From the NCBI GenBank assembly GCA_020636645.1, contig JACJXO010000002.1:106465-170464 (forward strand): a stretch of 64,000 nt of DNA, given 5' to 3'. The notes beneath the pieces were generated by a model. That model was given only the letters and a program-made list of their open reading frames with translations, did not search any database and was not told the DNA's origin. Below, piece by piece: positions 11,972-19,024 of this stretch; positions within the stretch are counted from its first letter, which is position 1, and the number at the start of each line of letters is the position of its first letter. Source of the DNA: Chitinophagales bacterium (lineage in GTDB: Bacteria; Bacteroidota; Bacteroidia; Chitinophagales; BACL12). Position numbers and translations under genes: made by a program.

Positions 11972-12961
11972 ATGAGAAAACTTAAAACATTATTTCTGGC
12001 AGGTCTGTGTTCTGTTGGCATATTGTCAGCACAGACCTATGATGTGCTCTTCATTGTTGATATGAATGAAGTAGCAGATCCGTTCACCACACCTGAAGTG
12101 AATGGCACTTTCAACGTCTGGTGTGGAGGTTGTGCTCCTATGAGTGATGATAACGGAGACAATATCTGGGAACTGACCATCCCCCTGGATGCAGGTACAT
12201 ATGAATATAAATTCGCCTATGACACCTGGACCGGACAGGAATCACTTACACCCGGTGATGAGTGCACCCTGACCACAGATATCTTCACCAACCGATTGCT
12301 GGTTGTGTCTGAAGACATGGAACTGGATACTGTTTGCTGGGGAAGCTGCGATGCTTGTGAAGATGTACTGCCCTCCTATACGGTTACCTTCAGAGTAGAT
12401 ATGAGTCAGGTAACTGATACCTATACGACACCTGAGGTAAACGGAACATTCAATGACTGGTGCGGTGGTTGTGCTCCTATGGCAGACGATGATGCTGATG
12501 ATATATGGGTGCTGGATATCGTGCTGGAGCAAGGCTCCTATGAGTACAAGTTTGCCTATGATGCATGGACAGGTCAGGAAGAACTGACTGAAGGCGATGC
12601 CTGTACCATCACTACCGATGCATTCACGAACAGGGCGCTTGACGTCAGTTCTGATACGGTACTCACAGCGGTTTGCTGGGGATCATGCGATGAATGTGTG
12701 ACAATACCTGAGGCCATTGAAAATGTTACGTCAAACTTGTCTGTATTTCCTAACCCGGCCAGTGAACAGATATTCATTAGTGGTTTGCCTGCTTCCGGAA
12801 TTGTTCAGCTGTTTAACAGTCTGGGTCAGCCGGTCCGTTCAGAGCAAATTACATCAGTATCTGGCAGTATTTCTGTTGTAGGACTTTCCGCCGGGGTCTA
12901 CACCATACAGGTGCAGGATCAGGACGGTCAAATACAGAGCAGCATTATATTGATACGGTAA
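11972..12961 (+). CDS. T9SS cargo: 2 Cys-rich modules + Por_Secre_tail CTD
   Basis: 329 aa with the signal peptide ...GILSAQ. It has two B-type modules (GTFN.WCGGCAPM). The CTD reads FPNPASEQIFI...VYTIQV. Confidence 0.85.
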   Translation: MRKLKTLFLAGLCSVGILSAQTYDVLFIVDMNEVADPFTTPEVNGTFNVWCGGCAPMSDDNGDNIWELTIPLDAGTYEYKFAYDTWTGQESLTPGDECTLTTDIFTNRLLVVSEDMELDTVCWGSCDACEDVLPSYTVTFRVDMSQVTDTYTTPEVNGTFNDWCGGCAPMADDDADDIWVLDIVLEQGSYEYKFAYDAWTGQEELTEGDACTITTDAFTNRALDVSSDTVLTAVCWGSCDECVTIPEAIENVTSNLSVFPNPASEQIFISGLPASGIVQLFNSLGQPVRSEQITSVSGSISVVGLSAGVYTIQVQDQDGQIQSSIILIR

Positions 12962-12980
12962 TAACGTTCAGTTTGTTTGA

Positions 12981-13008
12981 AAGACGGCCGGAAGGCCGTC
13001 TTTGTTTG
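12981..13008 (+). terminator. Terminator hairpin AAGACGGCC-GGAA-GGCCGTCTT + T-rich tail
   Basis: A 9-bp stem with a GGAA tetraloop is followed by TGTTTGG after the stop at 12961. Confidence 0.6.
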
Positions 13009-13353
13009 GCGACTATATACCTAATGGGAACAGCTTTGTAAGGCGTTAATATACAGCAATTTACACAGGTAATTAGCTGACCTGATTAGGTTTGTCTAAG
13101 AAATTTTTGAGAATAGCCTAAGTAATTTGTTCGGCTAAGACTGAATTTGAGGCGATTTCAGTTAATGGGGGTTAACTGATTGCGAGCTGTGAAACAATAG
13201 TTAACAAGTTCTAAATACAATTATTCTTGCATTATTGAAACAATCTAGTTTATTTGCAGTTAACTTTGTAAAACTAAGTGGACTTGGGGTCACTCTAAAA
13301 CTGCCTTAAGTGGACCGCATGGAATTAATGGAAGAATTTATTGAGGGGCGAAG

Positions 13354-13425
13354 ACCGCATGGTGAGAATCGAACCCACATCTCCAGATTAGCAGTCTGGT
13401 GTTCTATCCGTTGAACTACATGCAG
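13354..13425 (-). tRNA. tRNA, class I (4-nt variable region), anticodon GCU by manual fold; isotype uncertain or atypical
   Basis: Manual cloverleaf. The acceptor stem is CTGCATG/CATGCGG. The D arm is GTTC-AACGGATA-GAAC. The anticodon arm is CCAGA-CTGCTAA-TCTGG. The variable region is AGAT. The T arm is GTGGG-TTCGATT-CTCAC. The discriminator is T and no CCA is encoded. Confidence 0.7.
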
Positions 13426-13862
13426 AATAGAAAGTAGGGGGGTCTAAATGATCCCCTTTTTTTCACCCCTTGCTTGTTGGGTGATCCATCTATTCAAATC
13501 TTCGCCTCATCTTAAGGCACACAAATTTATCGAATTTTTTGTACCTAATCTCTTAAGATGTTTGTTGGAGGGCCCAATTTAAGTCGTGTTAATTCTTCAC
13601 CAAATTCAACTTATTTATGATATTCTGGGGCTTCATACTGCTCCCTCCTGCCTACGGCTGCGCTGACTATGATGTAGTCTTTGCCCACTTCTAAGGCCTT
13701 GACGGTGCGCTCTCCCTTTTCCGGATGGTGTAGGCGTACTTCTGTGAGTTCTGGGTGCGGGGTGTTAAAGGCAGCGTCTATGACCTGCTCAAAGTCTCCG
13801 TGGATCTTCAGCTTCTTTTTCGTATTTCTTTGGTCGTTCTGCCATTATCTCCAACACTTGAT

Positions 13863-14525
13863 TTATTCAATGTATACCCATGATGGAGGGATTTCATAGC
13901 TAATTTCATCATTTCCAATAATATTATCCATAATGGAACTGCGAAACTTACCCTCGTTATTCTCCAAACGTTTAGCTTTTTTCCGAACAAATCGATTCAG
14001 ATCAAAACTGTTTCTTCTAGGTGGGAAAAAAATTTTTATTCTTTTATTAGGATAGTTTCTCCTTATAAACTCTAACGGTGGTACTAGGTCACTATCTGCA
14101 GAAATTAGTACAATTAAATCAACATTGTCGAAAACACAGTCTTCAATTAGATTAACTGAAATATTAACATCAGTTCTTTTTTCCTCTCTTAAATCAAACT
14201 CCTGGTGGCAACCTCCAATAGCATTACATTTAACCGTCTTAGTATAATACTTACCGTAAATCACCCTCAATAAATCGTTATTGACAAATCTGTTCGCATT
14301 AAAGAATGTTGTTTGCCTACTTGCTTTATTTGGATCAAGGGGCATGGCTGTGAAGTATTTCACACATACTAATTCATGAATATTTGGATCTAGAAATGAT
14401 CTACAAAACCCCACTAAATCAATCCAATAGTACTGCTGCCAACGGGCATGTATTTTCGCCTTGGCTGTCCTTAAGCCATAGTAAAAATTGAATCCGTCAA
14501 TATAGAATATAGTTCTTAGTTGCAT
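13863..14525 (-). CDS. NYN-domain (PIN-like nuclease fold, LabA-like) protein
   Basis: 220 aa. The N-terminus IFYIDGFNFYYG and the later VLISADSDLVPPLE acidic cluster are characteristic of NYN domains. The gene is AT-rich. Confidence 0.65.
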   Translation of the reverse strand: MQLRTIFYIDGFNFYYGLRTAKAKIHARWQQYYWIDLVGFCRSFLDPNIHELVCVKYFTAMPLDPNKASRQTTFFNANRFVNNDLLRVIYGKYYTKTVKCNAIGGCHQEFDLREEKRTDVNISVNLIEDCVFDNVDLIVLISADSDLVPPLEFIRRNYPNKRIKIFFPPRRNSFDLNRFVRKKAKRLENNEGKFRSSIMDNIIGNDEISYEIPPSWVYIE

Positions 14526-14551
14526 AAAAAAACCGCCTGTATGTCGGCGGC
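14526..14551 (-). terminator. Minus-strand terminator (CCGCC-loop-GGCGG followed by T7 on the minus strand)
   Basis: The plus strand reads AAAAAAA-CCGCC-TGTATGT-CGGCGG. It lies downstream of the transposase remnant and abuts the NYN start codon. Confidence 0.5.
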
Positions 14552-14666
14552 AAACTAACCGAGTTACCAGTTAGCGAGGTTATACTGCAAATCTAACGTC
14601 CAACTAGACAAAAACGCAAAAATTTAACACTTATTTTCATACTATTTGCATTTAACTTGCTAATTA

Positions 14667-15485
14667 TCAAGTAATTAAATCAATATTTCTGAGCCGGGCA
14701 TTGCCTACTCTCTCCAATACCTTGTCGAAGCGTTCGGTATCTGTGGCATTGCGGGTGTTGTACCTATATTCAAATTCATGGCAGTACTTCTGCAGGTGCT
14801 TCGGGCTGACATAATGGTAGATGCCAATAATACCCCTCTTCAACAGGCTGAACGCCCCCTCTATGGTGTTGATATGGACATTACCCCTGACATACTCTCC
14901 CCGACCATGTGCTACGCTGTCCACAAGATAGAGCCTGTGCGATGGCCGATAACCACTGTATTCGTCAGTATGTAGAATAGCCCCTGGCTTGACGTTGGCG
15001 AGGACAAACTCTCTCATATTCTTGGCCAATGCACGTTCTACCTGTAAATACCTGATCTCTCCCTTTCTCTCCAATGCACCCAATACATGCGTTTTCTTGT
15101 TCACCCATTTAGGGCCGTCAGTGTTCGGGTATTCTTTCGGAACTTGCCGTGCTTGTTGCTTTCTTTTCCTCCTATATAGGTTTCATCTAATTCCACGTCT
15201 TCGGTCAGGAGTTCGGCTGCATTTGTTCCTAACATAGTCCTGATGCGGTGCAGAATGAACCAAGCTGTTTTCTGAGTTACTCCCAGGTCACAGCTTAGCT
15301 GCAAACTGCTGATACCCGTCTAAGCCCCTGTCCTTAAACCTTGTCTTGGTCCGGTAATAGTGTTCACTCCCGCAATGCGGACACTCTGGCTTGCCATTCC
15401 ATCGCTTCAGCTCCAAATACTCAAAACAAACCCGCTCATTGTGGAAGTGCTTTTGTAGCTGTAATAATGTCTTAAATTTAGTCAT
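14667..15485 (-). pseudogene. IS1595-family (ISXO2-like) transposase, disrupted: three frame fragments plus an internal deletion
   Basis: Fragment 1 carries the zinc ribbon CPHCGSEHYY. Fragment 2 reads (GISSLQ)LSCDLGVTQKTAWFILHRIR...DETYIGGK. Fragment 3 is the DDE domain ...ILHTDEYSGY...NTIEGAFSLLKRGI.... The fragments sit in three different frames. The segment between the zinc ribbon and the HTH is missing. Confidence 0.8.
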
Positions 15486-15539
15486 GGCTCAGGCTTTTAG
15501 TCACAAATAAATCTATTCCCAATAAATACCTAAATTACA

Positions 15540-16052
15540 ATGAATGATTTTTACCACTTCATGAGTAGTGGCCATCCAAATGCAGTGCAAATCAATAGAA
15601 TAATTGACTCTATCAGGGGTCGCTACATTAGTATTTTCACAATACTTGAAGGATCAATTGATAGAGTAATTGCAGGGTATTATGCTCCAACAAAAACAAA
15701 AAGAGATCATCTTTTGACAAACCTTCTCGGACACCGATTCTGTTCCTTTGAATTAAAGTCATCTGTTCTAACAGAAATCCTTAAAGACTCAGGAATTGAA
15801 GGATATAAAGCCAAGCTGTCTGGTTTAGCTCAATTAAGAAATGCCCTTGCACATAGACCTATATATGCAATAGGGGAATTTACAGAAGACCCGAACGAAC
15901 TATTTTACTATATACCATCATATCAAATGAATTACGAACACAATTTAAGGTTAGAGTCAATCAAGTATGAGCTAACTGAAGAAAACTTTAATGAGTATAG
16001 CGAGAAAACATTAGAAATAGCAAAAATGCTAGACCAGTTTGTTTCCAAATAA
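15540..16052 (+). CDS. Hypothetical protein with a HEPN-type Rx4H motif (LAQLRNALAHRP)
   Basis: 170 aa, predicted all-helical and AT-rich. The RNxxAH signature fits HEPN/Abi-like RNase domains. No partner MNT gene was seen. Confidence 0.4.
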   Translation: MNDFYHFMSSGHPNAVQINRIIDSIRGRYISIFTILEGSIDRVIAGYYAPTKTKRDHLLTNLLGHRFCSFELKSSVLTEILKDSGIEGYKAKLSGLAQLRNALAHRPIYAIGEFTEDPNELFYYIPSYQMNYEHNLRLESIKYELTEENFNEYSEKTLEIAKMLDQFVSK

Positions 16053-16385
16053 AAAACGGTATCACCTTGCCGCCTTTGGATTTGGTAATACCGTCTCGCT
16101 GAAAGCTGAATATGCCTATTCCCTTTCAACTCCCCCACAGAGAAAACCTTCTGATAGCCCCCCTGTTCAGAACGAGGACAACAAATGTACCCATTATGTA
16201 TATAGTTAATAAATTATTAGGTGTTCTTCAAATATTTCTTAGATAGACTTAATCTGTTACGGTTGCAACCTCCGAGCATGCTGTATATAAATATCTTGTA
16301 AGGCTATTCCCAATAATGATATAGGTTCGTAAAAGAGAAGAATAAAATTAATATAGTATATTCGCAAAATCTAAATACAGTATAT

Positions 16386-18923
16386 ATGAAAACCAATTGG
16401 CTCTTGATATTATTGACAATTTGCCATTCTGTTTATGGACAAACAAATTCAATATCAATTAGTGGAACAAACTATGATATTCAAGAGGATCTCTACGGAA
16501 TCCATATTCAAAAATATTTTACCAATACATATACTAGCACAAGCTCAACAACATATGTTGGAATGGATCCAGAATTGGCAGAGGAGGGACTAATTGGACT
16601 TCAACCAGAAATTGTTAGATTTCCTGGAGGCGGAAGTAGCAGATTTATGCATCCGCACCCGTCTTATGGTTCCAGCTACTCTTACGGTTGGAATCTAGTT
16701 GAGATATGTAATTATTATGCGTATGTAATGGATGATTATTGTAGCTGTAATTGTGAGGAATTAGCTGCTACAGCTAGTGTTGACGGAACTTTTGACGATT
16801 TTGATGAGCTTGACGATTTTTTTTCAGAGATGGGAAGTGTAACTGATTGTTCAGATGCAGCAACTGATATGGAAAACAATGAAGGCGGTAGGTTAAGGGA
16901 AGTGATTAGCAATCAAAATGATGCCGCAAGTCCATATATTGATCAATTTATTACTCTAATTTTGAATATGGAGGATGAGCTTGAGAGAGATGTAGATGTT
17001 GTATACTGTGCAAACATACTTACGTCATCTGCCACGGAAATAGTTGAAACTTTAAATTATCTTATTACTTCGGGGGTTAATGTAGTAGCCGTTGAGCTTG
17101 GAAATGAAACCTATTCTAACTTTAATGCTCCAGTTTTTAATGATGATATGAATTATAAAGGATTCGAAAATTATTGGGACTATATTAACGGAATTGGCTT
17201 GTCAGCGAGTTGCACTAAGTATGATGAATTAATTGCAAAGCCAAGAAATGGTAACACAGATCATGATTTTATTGATGCCATTAGAAGTACATATTCTTGG
17301 GGTATAAATATAAAAATTGGAGTGCCAAGTATTGGACATGATGATTTTACCAATGTATTCAGATTTAGTGAGGAAGAGGAGGAGGAAGAGTTTACCCCCG
17401 GAACAATGCCAATGGGTTGCCCTGGAAGACATGGAGATTGGAATGCGGGTATACAGTCAAAAATGAGTGAAACAGTTGAAGTTTCAGGCATTGATTATCC
17501 TTCCTTTGATGGCGTCGTAATTCACCCTTATTATGCTGACTATGACCTTTTTGATCGAATGGAGGCTATTGTATGTGCAGCTGGGGGTATTGAAGATGAT
17601 GTACCAGACTGTGAGGATAATGAAATTCAGCAATTAACTGAGGAATATGATTTTTCGATGGTTGTAGAGGAACTTGATCCTGCATTCGACGGAAACTTGT
17701 TATTTACAACTTACTTATTTTTAAAGAGAAATATGGAGTTGGCTGGTGTATCCAGTAACGATGGTTATTTTGAGCAGTTTATAAAAGCTATTCAAGATGA
17801 TTATGGTTTTTTTGGAGGTGAATATGGAAAGGAACTTTGGACTACAGAATGGAATTATGCAAATCTTTCGGATGTGGTTCCATATGCTGGAGGTCCAAAA
17901 GATCTATTTAGCATATATGGTAATACTCTTTGGCAAGGTTATGTAGTATTTGAATATTTGATTAGGCAGATACAAGCAAATCTATTGTCTATTACAGATG
18001 ATGATGGTCTAGGTTTTGATGCAGATTTTTATACTATTTCGACTATACATCATTTTTTGGGAGAATCAAATGTGCACCTTATATCCAATCGTAAGGATAA
18101 TATTGGTGATTATAATGCACCTGTCCTCGAAGATGATGAGTATGTTAGGAGGATTTCATTTTTGTCAATGGCAATGTTGGCACCTATTTTCAATCTTGAT
18201 TTGAAATACACTGCATGTTCATATGGAGGCGTTAACAAAAAGCTTTACTTAACTACATTTAATAAGTCTGGGGAATATTTTGTGTATTATGTTAACTTGA
18301 ATAATACTGATCAAGAAGTAACAATTTCAGGCTTAGATTCATATTATACTCCACCACCTATACCCATGGAATGTCCAACATGTTGGCGTCAACATTACCA
18401 GTTAAATTATGTAGGTGGGGATGAATGTTATTTAGATAATTGCTATTTGTATAATACAATGGGATCATCATATTTGTTTGATACAGACTTCAACACATTT
18501 TATTCAGATCCTGCGGATATACCATTTACTATACAGCCTGACATAAATAAGGAGAATGTAATCTTGCCTTTGCCGGAGGAGGAAATGTCTGAGGATTTAA
18601 GTGTTATTCTACCAAAAATGAGTTTCGGATATGTTTATATACCTGTTCATACCTGGGGCACTTTACGAGAAAGTGGTTATACCCAAAAGCTTATAGCATA
18701 TCCAAATCCAACAAGTTCCAATGTGCAAATTGAGTTATCAGATAGTATTTTTGGGGATATTGAAGTGTTTGATAATTTAGGCGCAATAGTTCTTCAATAT
18801 AGCCCAAATACATATGAAACACTCATTAACTTAGACTTGTCTAATTTGGCAAATGGCTTATATCATATTAAAATAGTTTTTAATGATATGGACGTTGAAA
18901 TGATACCTATAATAAAAAATTGA
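16386..18923 (+). CDS. T9SS-secreted clan GH-A-like glycosidase candidate (very AT-rich gene)
   Basis: 845 aa with a signal peptide. Motifs are RFPGGGSS, VAVELGNETYS (NE motif) and ELWTTEWNY (candidate nucleophile). There is an acidic EEEEEEE tract. The CTD reads YPNPTSSNVQIEL...LYHIKIV. Confidence 0.55.
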   Translation: MKTNWLLILLTICHSVYGQTNSISISGTNYDIQEDLYGIHIQKYFTNTYTSTSSTTYVGMDPELAEEGLIGLQPEIVRFPGGGSSRFMHPHPSYGSSYSYGWNLVEICNYYAYVMDDYCSCNCEELAATASVDGTFDDFDELDDFFSEMGSVTDCSDAATDMENNEGGRLREVISNQNDAASPYIDQFITLILNMEDELERDVDVVYCANILTSSATEIVETLNYLITSGVNVVAVELGNETYSNFNAPVFNDDMNYKGFENYWDYINGIGLSASCTKYDELIAKPRNGNTDHDFIDAIRSTYSWGINIKIGVPSIGHDDFTNVFRFSEEEEEEEFTPGTMPMGCPGRHGDWNAGIQSKMSETVEVSGIDYPSFDGVVIHPYYADYDLFDRMEAIVCAAGGIEDDVPDCEDNEIQQLTEEYDFSMVVEELDPAFDGNLLFTTYLFLKRNMELAGVSSNDGYFEQFIKAIQDDYGFFGGEYGKELWTTEWNYANLSDVVPYAGGPKDLFSIYGNTLWQGYVVFEYLIRQIQANLLSITDDDGLGFDADFYTISTIHHFLGESNVHLISNRKDNIGDYNAPVLEDDEYVRRISFLSMAMLAPIFNLDLKYTACSYGGVNKKLYLTTFNKSGEYFVYYVNLNNTDQEVTISGLDSYYTPPPIPMECPTCWRQHYQLNYVGGDECYLDNCYLYNTMGSSYLFDTDFNTFYSDPADIPFTIQPDINKENVILPLPEEEMSEDLSVILPKMSFGYVYIPVHTWGTLRESGYTQKLIAYPNPTSSNVQIELSDSIFGDIEVFDNLGAIVLQYSPNTYETLINLDLSNLANGLYHIKIVFNDMDVEMIPIIKN

Positions 18924-19024
18924 TCGTGCTTGTGATATGGTTCTCAGAGCGAATAAGATTATTTTTGTTAAATTGTAAATTACTCTTTTAATATCGTTAT
19001 TTTCCTGCTGCTTACCTTTGCGGG

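What the first reader, a model, noticed from the sequence alone, without database searches (positions are those of the whole stretch)
13354..13425. A well-formed class-I tRNA carries the serine-type anticodon GCU at the edge of an AT-rich island
The manual fold gives a canonical cloverleaf with U8, G18-G19, U33, the T-loop TTCGATT and G53-C61. The acceptor stem begins C1-G72 and the discriminator is U. The variable region is only 4 nt (AGAT). The anticodon loop is C-U-G-C-U-A-A, so the anticodon is GCU (codons AGC/AGU). Bacterial tRNA-Ser is class II with a long variable arm that SerRS requires, so this molecule should not be a normal tRNA-Ser. A U73 discriminator with a G-C-N anticodon is one base away from tRNA-Cys (GCA). 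Three explanations are possible: a mutated or decaying tRNA gene, a mobile-element-borne tRNA, or a tRNA that reassigns or misreads AGY.
Basis: partly seen in the sequence, partly recalled or inferred. Interest (0 to 1): 0.55.

Follow-up and report, generated by a model that had tools for sequence, protein, structure and literature searches.

The report
Arginine-type tRNA carrying a serine anticodon
A real, well-folded tRNA gene on a small foreign DNA island has the body of an arginine tRNA but an anticodon that reads serine codons, most likely a mutated passenger of a mobile element and not a new kind of serine or cysteine tRNA.

Summary
Window 13354-13425 (minus strand) is a canonical class-I tRNA with anticodon GCU (ARAGORN; Rfam 64.9 bits against a cut-off of 29), at the edge of a 36-39% GC island.

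The Cys-like reading does not hold. The body belongs to the tRNA-Arg(CCU/CCG) family. Its D-arm motif lies only in Arg tRNAs in relatives: 37 of 39 motif instances, and the other 2 are in no called tRNA. A20, C35 and U36, the bacterial ArgRS determinants, are all present. Only the wobble base differs (G34 instead of C/U).

The gene is foreign. It is missing from the same site in the same-genus genome. It sits beside a frameshifted IS1595 transposase, an NYN nuclease (PADLOC HEC-09) and AGR-rich genes.

The genome has a normal class-II tRNA-Ser(GCU) and one ArgRS. AGY codons align with Ser.

Metatranscriptome contigs cover the NYN gene and the tRNA but not the transposase, so the stretch is transcribed.

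The same Arg-type D-arm with a GCU loop recurs at 26 loci in public collections, often beside integrases, IS or defence genes. It is far rarer than the CCU form, and most copies have stem defects.

Best reading: a mobile-element tRNA-Arg whose anticodon has shifted. If matured and charged, it would put Arg at AGY codons.

The parts
13354..13425 (-). Class-I tRNA, anticodon GCU, with a tRNA-Arg(CCU)-type body (A20, C35, U36, variable AGAU, C1-G72, U73). No encoded CCA.
   Evidence: ARAGORN; Rfam 64.9 bits; cloverleaf MFE; D-arm motif specific to Arg tRNAs in relatives.
13313..13322 (+). Second copy of the 10-nt GACCGCATGG. This is the tRNA's 3' acceptor strand plus discriminator, repeated 30 nt downstream of the tRNA. 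The first copy is at 13353-13362, inside the tRNA. It may be an old att or junction scar.
   Evidence: There are only two exact copies in the window, 40 nt apart. No longer copy of the tRNA 3' end exists elsewhere in the window.
13436..13458 (+). G+C-rich hairpin followed by a T-run on the + strand, 10 nt upstream of the tRNA 5' end. It leaves little room for a dedicated tRNA promoter.
   Evidence: Terminator-like site; sequence.
13611..13844 (-). Open frame of 77 codons without a start codon, with higher GC than the island and no family match. Probably a gene fragment.
   Evidence: Stop-to-stop ORF list; no Pfam or PADLOC hit.
13863..14525 (-). 220-aa NYN-domain nuclease, a full-length match to the PADLOC candidate defence protein HEC-09. 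It lies upstream of the tRNA on the same strand.
   Evidence: Pfam NYN E 1.1e-7; PADLOC HEC-09 E 4.4e-48, profile positions 3-202 of 203.
12962..14570 (.). Stretch covered by one metatranscriptome contig (X19, 1609 nt). A second run covers 13146-14563. It spans the NYN gene, the hairpin, the tRNA and its trailer. Strand is not known.
   Evidence: records 13 and 17, 0 differing letters. RNA depth is 0 over 14615-15219, which the DNA runs do cover.
14667..15485 (-). IS1595-family DDE transposase gene broken into three frames (14667-15104, 15101-15304, 15288-15485). It is the only copy in the genome and has no RNA cover.
   Evidence: ORFs; Pfam DDE_Tnp_IS1595 E 1.3e-29; collinear tblastx pieces against the intact L023 transposase; no other copy in the genome.
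15540..16052 (+). 170-aa protein with an R-x4-H motif (LRNALAHR). The HEPN_RiboL-PSP and Arm-DNA-bind_5 hits are weak and below cut-off.
   Evidence: Translation; Pfam E 0.022 and 8.7e-4, both under the curated cut-offs.
16386..18923 (+). 845-aa AT-rich gene with a T9SS sorting domain. It is part of the strain-specific island. The same-genus genome has an unrelated 1038-aa protein at this place.
   Evidence: Pfam Por_Secre_tail; BLASTP shows only tail similarity, E 0.015; synteny.

Best explanation
The gene is a horizontally acquired tRNA of the tRNA-Arg(CCU) family whose wobble base is G instead of C or U. It therefore carries a serine (AGC/AGU) anticodon on an arginine-type body.

It came in with a small AT-rich, AGR-codon-rich island that also holds a now-frameshifted IS1595 transposase, an NYN (HEC-09-like) nuclease and a HEPN-like gene. 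Such islands commonly carry a tRNA-Arg(YCU) for their AGR codons (established knowledge).

Shown: tRNA fold, anticodon, Arg-type body, foreign context, transcription of the stretch, a standard AGY = Ser code, and a single ArgRS.

Inferred: ArgRS reads A20, C35 and U/G36 and does not depend on base 34. The transcript, once cut out by RNase P and 3' trimming and given CCA, would therefore be charged with arginine and could pair only with AGY. It is thus either an anticodon-dead relic that no longer serves AGR decoding, or a weak Ser-to-Arg mistranslator that competes with the host's normal tRNA-Ser(GCU).

I favour the relic or by-product reading. It is not a tRNA-Ser, not a tRNA-Cys derivative and not a sign of code change.
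For: Body:
- The best DNA matches in 40 relatives are tRNA-Arg(CCU), 76-81% over positions 7-60. ARAGORN finds Arg(cct) at 10 of 11 loci inspected and Trp at one.
- The motif TAGTTCAAYGGATAGAAY occurs in 29 of 41 genomes, with 0 hits for the reversed control. In the 30 loci fetched, 37 of 39 instances lie in tRNA-Arg (24 CCU, 13 CCG) and 2 lie in no called tRNA.
- C1 is the commonest first base (77 of 124) among Arg tRNAs on the viral contigs that carry this D-arm with a CCU loop.
- The bacterial Arg identity set is A/G73, U73, A20, C35, U/G36 (Table 1 and passages of PMC9976931). All are present here.

Foreign origin:
- The same-genus genome has the flanking genes but no tRNA and a different cargo gene.
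- GC is 0.36-0.39.
- An IS1595 transposase and a HEC-09 nuclease lie alongside.
- Island genes use AGR for 33 of 44 Arg codons, against 23 of 91 in flanking genes.
- The host's own Arg tRNAs have G1 and A73.

Precedent:
- In a Spirosomataceae genome a 3.1-kb IS1595 transposon is present as two 100% identical copies with 26-nt terminal inverted repeats. It carries a transposase, defence-like cargo and an Arg-like GCU tRNA element in the same order.

Rarity and decay of the type:
- Of 21 unique GCU-pattern sequences, only 6 have no stem mismatch and 2 are 5' halves only.

Code:
- A class-II Ser(GCU) is present.
- AGY aligns with Ser in 29 of 46 cases and with Arg in 1 of 46.
- AGT145 of the NYN gene aligns with Ser in 25 of 27 homologues.
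- One ArgRS is found.

Transcription:
- RNA contigs cover 12962-14570 and 13146-14563 but not the transposase region.
Against: - The cloverleaf shows no decay at all, which a long-dead gene would not keep.
- The stretch is transcribed and is letter-identical in all four runs laid. Its words are complete in 18 DNA runs of 9 studies from 2015-2021, although some of these may be the source. It is therefore not being purged.
- Five other GCU copies elsewhere are also well formed, and two sequences (L044, well formed, and L036, which has stem mismatches) are followed by CCA after the discriminator. This leaves room for selection on GCU.
- Membership of the IS is not shown. The inverted repeats in the window are weak (18 nt, 78%), and 0 of 29 other Bacteroidota IS1595 loci have a tRNA within about 1.5 kb.
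- No isotype-specific scoring (tRNAscan-SE) could be run. A crude global identity to the genome's own tRNAs does not single out Arg: several isotypes tie at 50 matches.
- Charging, maturation and strand of the transcript are all unobserved.
Confidence: 0.65

Rival explanations
1. It is a working, selected mistranslating or special-purpose tRNA. It would be Arg-charged, read AGY and be kept by the island, for example as a stress or abortive-infection proteome modifier, or as an Arg donor for a non-ribosomal reaction.
For: The cloverleaf is perfect and all Arg determinants are present. It is transcribed together with a defence-type nuclease gene. It is stable in four runs laid. GCU on Arg-type bodies recurs at 26 loci, many beside integrases, R-M, RAMP, NucS-like or IS genes. 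Four of those have an unusual C55 T-loop.
Against: No conserved partner gene was found. 0 of 29 NYN/HEC-09 homologue loci and 0 of 29 IS1595 loci have a tRNA. There is no second ArgRS. GCU is about as rare as ACU in viral contigs (3 against 1, with at least 116 CCU). 15 of 21 unique copies have stem defects or are halves. The pattern search itself fixed the anticodon, so its recurrence does not show selection. Conserved Ser positions are still encoded by AGY.
Confidence: 0.12
2. It acts as a tRNA-shaped DNA or RNA element and not as a decoder. It could be a former integration (att) site carried along with the island, or an RNase P/Z processing and stabilising module in the 3' part of the NYN transcript.
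For: A 10-nt copy of its 3' acceptor strand lies 30 nt downstream, as left by site-specific recombination at tRNA 3' ends. Related GCU elements sit directly beside tyrosine integrases (L024, L028, L030, L039) or exist as 5' halves ending in the anticodon loop (L042, L043/L045). The tRNA lies inside the region covered by the NYN RNA contig, and a hairpin sits only 10 nt upstream, so it has no obvious promoter of its own.
Against: No integrase is intact in the island; there is only a weak sub-threshold Arm-DNA-bind_5 hit. No second long tRNA fragment marks another island end. Full conservation of tertiary-interaction bases is not needed for an att site. Co-transcription of tRNAs with mRNAs is ordinary.
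Confidence: 0.15
3. It derives from tRNA-Cys (GCA changed to GCU) or tRNA-Gly (GCC changed to GCU), as U73 suggests, and is or was charged by CysRS or GlyRS.
For: U73 is the Cys and Gly discriminator, and G34 and C35 fit Cys. No tRNA-Cys(GCA) or tRNA-Gly(GCC) gene is found in the 13-contig, 94.8%-complete assembly.
Against: No Cys or Gly tRNA appears among the similarity hits in 40 relatives. The D-arm motif is Arg-only. A36 (Cys) and C36 with G1-C72 and C2-G71 (Gly) are absent. U73 is also listed among the bacterial Arg determinants. Several other tRNAs (Phe, Leu-UAA, Arg-ACG) are missing too, so the gaps reflect the assembly.
Confidence: 0.03
4. It is a true class-I serine tRNA charged by SerRS, or marks a reassignment of AGY.
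For: The anticodon GCU reads AGY.
Against: Bacterial SerRS needs the long variable arm (Table 1 of PMC9976931), and here it is 4 nt. A normal class-II Ser(GCU) is present. AGY aligns with Ser as in the standard code. The gene is absent from the sister genome.
Confidence: 0.02

Closest known systems
Bacterial tRNA-Arg(CCU) (argW-type minor arginine tRNA), including copies carried by or flanking prophages and genomic islands
   Same: Same D-arm and D-loop with A20, a 4-nt variable region AGAU, C35 and U36. The C1-G72 start is common in viral-contig copies. It sits in AT-rich, AGR-rich foreign DNA.
   Different: Position 34 is G, so the anticodon pairs with AGC/AGU and not AGG. The discriminator is U73, where the host lineage's Arg tRNAs have A73.
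[quoted passage not shown]
   Same: The body predicts one amino acid and the anticodon another. The usual reading is a silenced, decaying or specially regulated gene.
   Different: Here the conflict is Arg body with a Ser(AGY) anticodon, in a bacterium, on a mobile island. I found no paper on that pair. The search gave three papers on animal small RNAs (judged from the listing), and the broader searches listed nothing on it.
Natural mistranslating tRNAs: the tRNAProX family with ProRSx in Streptomyces (passages of the review PMC11415595)
   Same: Identity elements for one amino acid combined with an anticodon for another, encoded in a bacterial genome.
   Different: tRNAProX has a dedicated synthetase paralogue and unusual core bases. 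Here there is only one ArgRS, the core is ordinary, and no function is shown.
IS1595-family transposons with passenger genes (family name from Pfam PF12762; that some members carry passengers is recalled, not checked here)
   Same: An IS1595-type transposase lies upstream on the same strand, followed by cargo and then the tRNA. An intact 3.1-kb example with the same order exists in L023/L025.
   Different: In the window the transposase is frameshifted, the terminal repeats are not convincing, and other IS1595 loci sampled carry no tRNA.

Membership tests
tRNA (Rfam RF00005) | Cloverleaf scoring above the family's gathering threshold | tested here: met
   64.9 bits against 29, model positions 1-71 of 71. 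ARAGORN calls it. The MFE fold is the cloverleaf.
tRNA (Rfam RF00005) | Conserved core bases U8, A14, G18 G19, U33, G53 T54 T55 C56, A58, C61 | tested here: met
   Read from the cmscan alignment and the ARAGORN drawing.
Bacterial tRNA-Ser | Long variable arm (class II) required by SerRS | tested here: not met
   The variable region is 4 nt. The genome's own Ser tRNAs are 88-90 nt. The requirement is taken from Table 1 of PMC9976931.
Bacterial tRNA-Ser | Discriminator G73 | tested here: not met
   U73.
tRNA-Cys | Anticodon G34 C35 A36 with U73 | tested here: not met
   U73, G34 and C35 are present but position 36 is U. No tRNA-Cys is among the similarity hits in relatives.
Bacterial tRNA-Arg | A20 in the D-loop (main ArgRS determinant) | tested here: met
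   The D-loop is AACGGAUA, with GGAUA giving G18 G19 A20 U20a A21. The numbering follows E. coli tRNA-Arg by analogy and is recalled. The determinant is from PMC9976931.
Bacterial tRNA-Arg | C35 and U/G36 | tested here: met
   The anticodon is G-C-U.
Bacterial tRNA-Arg | Anticodon that reads an arginine codon (NCG or YCU) | tested here: not met
   G34 makes it GCU, which pairs with AGC/AGU. I therefore file it as Arg-type by body and not as a working tRNA-Arg.
Bacterial tRNA-Arg | Discriminator A/G73 (U73 also listed for bacteria) | tested here: inconclusive
   It has U73. Table 1 of PMC9976931 lists A/G73 and U73. All 37 Arg tRNAs of relatives inspected end in A73.
Bacterial tRNA-Arg | Sequence kinship of the body to Arg tRNAs and not to other isotypes | tested here: met
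   10 of 11 inspected best hits are Arg(CCU). The D-arm motif lies in Arg tRNAs in 37 of 39 instances. Crude global identity within the own genome is uninformative.
Bacterial tRNA-Arg | Charged by ArgRS | not testable with these tools
   This needs in vitro aminoacylation or acid-gel or tRNA-seq analysis.
IS1595-family transposon passenger | DDE_Tnp_IS1595 transposase next to it | tested here: met
   E 1.3e-29, but split over three frames.
IS1595-family transposon passenger | Terminal inverted repeats enclosing both transposase and tRNA, or further copies of the unit | tested here: inconclusive
   The best candidate repeat is 18 nt at 78% (13326-13343 and 15520-15537). There is no other copy in the genome. 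L023/L025 meet this criterion.
Dedicated mistranslation pair (tRNAProX/ProRSx type) | A second, specialised synthetase gene | tested here: not met
   One PF00750 match in the 94.8%-complete assembly.

The most novel reading that the evidence does not exclude
The tRNA is matured from the NYN-nuclease transcript, charged by the single ArgRS and used on the ribosome. A mobile defence mini-island would then carry a programmed Ser(AGY)-to-Arg mistranslator. The scattered Arg-bodied GCU tRNAs beside integrases, IS elements and restriction or other defence genes in other phyla would be the same device.
Probability: 0.08. Interest if true: 0.8.

Novelty: new member of a known kind. Interest (0 to 1): 0.38.

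Why it matters
ArgRS does not read base 34. A single change there turns an arginine tRNA into a molecule that keeps every known arginine determinant yet pairs only with serine AGY codons. This is a very short mutational path to a Ser-to-Arg mistranslator.

This window holds an intact, transcribed example that persists in wastewater communities sampled over several years. The same body and anticodon pairing recurs on mobile and defence-rich DNA in several phyla.

If it is inert, it is a tidy case for annotation. Programs that name tRNAs by anticodon alone will call it tRNA-Ser, which is wrong. If it is charged and used, it would be a mobile mistranslating tRNA without a dedicated synthetase.

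Tried and rejected
- E. coli genome collection: no match to 12800-14000. The organism is a Bacteroidota (T9SS domains).
- Global identity of the tRNA to the 31 other tRNAs of the genome: Ser, Leu, Lys and two Arg tie at 50 matches, so it is uninformative.
- Terminal repeats of an IS around the tRNA: only weak candidates. Comparison with the L023 repeats gave nothing convincing.
- Other copies of the island in the genome: none.
- tRNA as a regular partner of IS1595: 0 of 29 loci. The loci reach only about 1.5 kb either side of the match, so a tRNA 2 kb away, as in L023, would be missed.
- tRNA as a regular partner of NYN/HEC-09: 0 of 29 loci; one has a tmRNA.
- A longer second copy of the tRNA 3' end marking an island border: none.
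- AGY codons as hidden Arg codons: rejected.
- The G037 tRNA-Trp hit: generic stem similarity with a different D-arm.
- Orphan frame 13611-13844: no family.
- Earlier notes of this scan: none on this tRNA by words or by sequence.
- Papers: no report of an Arg-bodied GCU tRNA under the terms. One search failed on term format and was resent.
- RNA contigs cannot give strand, ends or level, so maturation could not be judged. Parts without RNA cover other than the transposase stretch are not interpreted.
- tRNAscan-SE was not available.

Full report
**1. The observation**

ARAGORN finds a single tRNA in the 64-kb window, at 13353-13425 on the minus strand, and names it Ser(gct) from the anticodon. 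Rfam's tRNA model matches 13354-13425 at 64.9 bits against a cut-off of 29.

- C1-G72 and U73
- D-loop AACGGAUA
- anticodon loop CUGCUAA
- a 4-nt variable region AGAU
- T-loop UUCGAUU

The thermodynamic optimum is the cloverleaf, and no stem has a mismatch. The AT-rich island is real, with GC 0.36-0.39 at 14-18 kb against about 0.5 elsewhere. Contigs from two DNA runs and two RNA runs carry the identical sequence, so GCU is not an assembly error.

**2. What kind of tRNA it is**

The window is contig C6:106465-170464 of a 2.88-Mb, 13-contig, 94.8%-complete genome. Type IX secretion sorting domains mark it as Bacteroidota.

ARAGORN finds 32 tRNAs in the genome. They include an ordinary 90-nt class-II tRNA-Ser(GCU) at C6:577381-577470. 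This molecule is therefore not the cell's AGY decoder.

No tRNA-Cys or tRNA-Gly(GCC) is found. Phe, Leu(UAA) and Arg(ACG) are missing as well, and a broken Phe gene sits near a contig end. The gaps reflect the assembly.

The body points to arginine:
- The D-arm GUAGUUCAACGGAUAGAAC and the variable region AGAU are nearly those of the genome's own tRNA-Arg(CCG) and tRNA-Arg(CCU).
- A DNA search of 40 relatives matched in 20 of them, at 76-81% identity over positions 7-60. Of the 11 loci I inspected, 10 are tRNA-Arg(CCU) and one is a tRNA-Trp with only generic similarity.
- The 18-nt D-arm motif occurs in 29 of 41 genomes, with no hit for the reversed control. In the 30 loci fetched, 37 of 39 instances lie in tRNA-Arg genes (24 CCU, 13 CCG). 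The other two lie in no called tRNA.

Table 1 and the arginine section of PMC9976931 (passages seen) list the bacterial arginine determinants as A20 (the strongest), C35, U/G36 and A/G73, with U73 also listed. All are present here, and position 34 is not among them.

The cysteine set needs A36 and the glycine set needs C36 with G1-C72 and C2-G71. These are absent.

So the parent is an Arg(YCU) tRNA changed at base 34, not a Cys tRNA changed at base 36. One caveat applies: I could not run isotype-specific models, and a crude global identity within the genome does not discriminate.

**3. Where it sits**

The same-genus genome G001 has the flanking genes: the 331-aa carbohydrate-binding protein on one side and kynureninase on the other. 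Between them it has an unrelated 1038-aa protein and no tRNA.

In the window the interval from about 13000 to 19000 holds, in order:
- the tRNA (minus strand)
- a hairpin 10 nt upstream of it
- an orphan 77-codon frame
- a 220-aa NYN nuclease that matches the PADLOC candidate defence protein HEC-09 over its full length (E 4.4e-48)
- an IS1595-family transposase split over three frames
- a 170-aa protein with an R-x4-H motif and only sub-threshold HEPN similarity
- an AT-rich 845-aa T9SS-tagged gene

There is no other copy of this stretch in the genome.

Island genes use AGA/AGG for 33 of 44 arginine codons, against 23 of 91 in the flanking genes. That is the usual reason for foreign DNA to carry a tRNA-Arg(YCU) (established knowledge).

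A 10-nt copy of the tRNA's 3' acceptor strand lies 30 nt downstream. It is the only other exact copy in the window and may be a recombination scar.

**4. Is it part of the IS?**

An exact-pattern scan of 185,579 species genomes for the Arg-type D-arm followed by a YUGCUAA loop gave 9 loci.

Two of them are 100% identical 3,099-bp copies in one Spirosomataceae contig, bounded by 26-nt inverted repeats. This unit is an active IS1595 transposon. It carries a transposase, a PD-Lambda-2_B-like protein, a 190-aa ORF and the GCU tRNA-like element. The order and strand arrangement match the window.

In the window, however, the candidate end repeats are weak. In addition, 0 of 29 other Bacteroidota IS1595 loci hold a tRNA within about 1.5 kb. 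Passenger status is plausible but not shown.

The NYN gene is not a regular partner either: 0 of 29 homologue loci hold a tRNA.

**5. The wider set**

The same pattern gave 3 loci in viral contigs and 14 in metagenome contigs, so 26 loci in all. ARAGORN calls a class-I 'Ser(gct)' tRNA in 22 of them.

Hosts by record title include Clostridium, Nitrosomonadales, Nitrospiraceae, Eubacteriales, Spirosomataceae and Flavobacteriaceae.

Neighbouring genes are often:
- tyrosine integrases (L024, L028, L030, L039)
- restriction-modification genes (L027, L033, L035)
- a NucS-like nuclease (L021/L041)
- RAMP proteins (L036)
- an AAA_21 ATPase (L042)

No control set was scored, so this is descriptive.

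The type is rare.

It is often damaged. Of 21 unique sequences, 6 (the window among them) have no mismatch in the acceptor, anticodon or T stems, and two are tRNA-like only up to the anticodon loop. L040 was left out because a contig end cuts it.

Because the pattern fixed the anticodon, its recurrence does not show selection. These data fit sporadic anticodon variants of the very common mobile or att-site tRNA-Arg(CCU). They do not exclude a functional class.

**6. Code and synthetase**

AGY codons of six window genes align with Ser in G001 in 29 of 46 cases and with Arg in 1 of 46. A seventh gene had no hit.

In the NYN gene itself, AGT145 aligns with Ser in 25 of 27 homologues.

One ArgRS gene is found. 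There is no sign of a changed code or a dedicated synthetase.

**7. Expression**

All sampled words of 13000-14600 are held by 18 DNA runs of 9 studies of activated sludge, wastewater or soil (2015-2021), some of which may be the source. Most words are also held by two metatranscriptome runs of one study from 2024.

Laid on 12800-16400, the RNA contigs cover 12962-14570 (depth 33) and 13146-14563 (depth 12.6) without a differing letter. That span is the NYN gene, the hairpin, the tRNA and its trailer.

RNA depth is zero over the transposase (14615-15219), which the DNA runs cover at normal depth. That contrast argues for transcription and against DNA carry-over.

Contigs give no strand, ends or level, and such libraries do not show mature tRNA.

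**8. Mechanism and verdict**

Shown:
- a sound tRNA fold with anticodon GCU
- an Arg(CCU)-family body with all arginine determinants
- foreign, mobile-element and defence-gene context
- transcription of the stretch
- a standard AGY = Ser code

Inferred: the tRNA is cut from a read-through NYN transcript, receives CCA (none is encoded), is charged by ArgRS and can pair only with AGY.

The most likely reading (0.65) is a mobile-element tRNA-Arg that has lost its arginine anticodon through one base change. It persists as a neutral or mildly harmful passenger.

Rivals:
- a selected mistranslator or special-purpose tRNA (0.12)
- a tRNA-shaped att or processing element (0.15)
- a Cys or Gly derivative (0.03)
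- a true class-I tRNA-Ser or a code change (0.02)

Anticodon/isotype conflicts are a known category (tRNAscan-SE 2.0, passages of PMC8450103). Natural mistranslating tRNAs are known too (review PMC11415595, passages).

I found no paper on an Arg-bodied GCU tRNA under the terms. I rate it a new member of a known kind, of moderate interest.

Noticed in passing
G000:C2:73267-73329 (minus strand; outside the window): A tRNA-Phe(GAA) gene is intact up to the T-loop (GGTTC) and then runs into unrelated sequence, about 4 kb from a contig end. Rfam scores it 36.3 bits and ARAGORN misses it. No intact Phe, Cys, Gly(GCC), Leu(UAA) or Arg(ACG) tRNA is in the assembly.
   Followed up: partly
window 13863-14525 (-): A 220-aa NYN nuclease matches the PADLOC candidate defence protein HEC-09 over its full length (E 4.4e-48). 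A 43%-identical paralogue lies at G000:C8:289145-289624. Homologues occur in 36 of 401 Bacteroidota genomes sampled, the window's own genome included.
   Followed up: partly
window 15540-16052 (+): A 170-aa protein has the motif LRNALAHR (R-x4-H). Similarity to HEPN_RiboL-PSP is sub-threshold (E 0.022). It is covered by an RNA contig at low depth.
   Followed up: partly
window 13313-13322 and 13353-13362: A 10-nt direct repeat GACCGCATGG. The 3' acceptor strand of the tRNA is copied 30 nt downstream, and these are the only two exact copies in 64 kb. It may be an old recombination scar.
   Followed up: partly
L023:66-3164 and L025 (reverse), Spirosomataceae MAG contig: Two 100% identical 3,099-bp copies of an IS1595 transposon with 26-nt terminal inverted repeats. 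It carries a PD-Lambda-2_B-like/IrrE-like 414-aa protein, a 190-aa ORF and a GCU tRNA-like element with a poorly paired acceptor stem, whose 3' strand also forms a hairpin with downstream sequence.
   Followed up: partly
L024, L028, L039 (Flavobacteriaceae UBA3611, Altibacter, a marine scaffold): A conserved arrangement: tRNA-Asp, then a 135-aa ORF (in L024 and L039; L028 has a 396-aa HNH-domain ORF there), a tyrosine integrase and a class-I GCU tRNA about 50 nt after the integrase stop. In these and in Flavobacterium anhuiense (L026) pair 2:71 is never formed (G/A/C opposite A71) and 1:72 is G-U.
   Followed up: no
L030, L032, L033, L044: Four of the Arg-bodied GCU tRNAs have a T-loop UCCGA, with C at position 55 in place of the near-universal U. 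L044 also has CCA after the discriminator.
   Followed up: no
L042; L043/L045: The Arg-type D-arm and GCU loop are present, but the sequence after the anticodon loop is not tRNA-like. These are 5' halves that end in the anticodon loop, as expected at a recombination junction.
   Followed up: no
G016:C46:20338-20844: Three copies of the Arg D-arm motif lie within about 500 bp, but only one is in a tRNA that ARAGORN calls. The others may be tRNA-Arg fragments.
   Followed up: no
window 14615-15219: The frameshifted IS1595 transposase has no RNA-contig cover in either metatranscriptome run, while its neighbours on both sides do.
   Followed up: no
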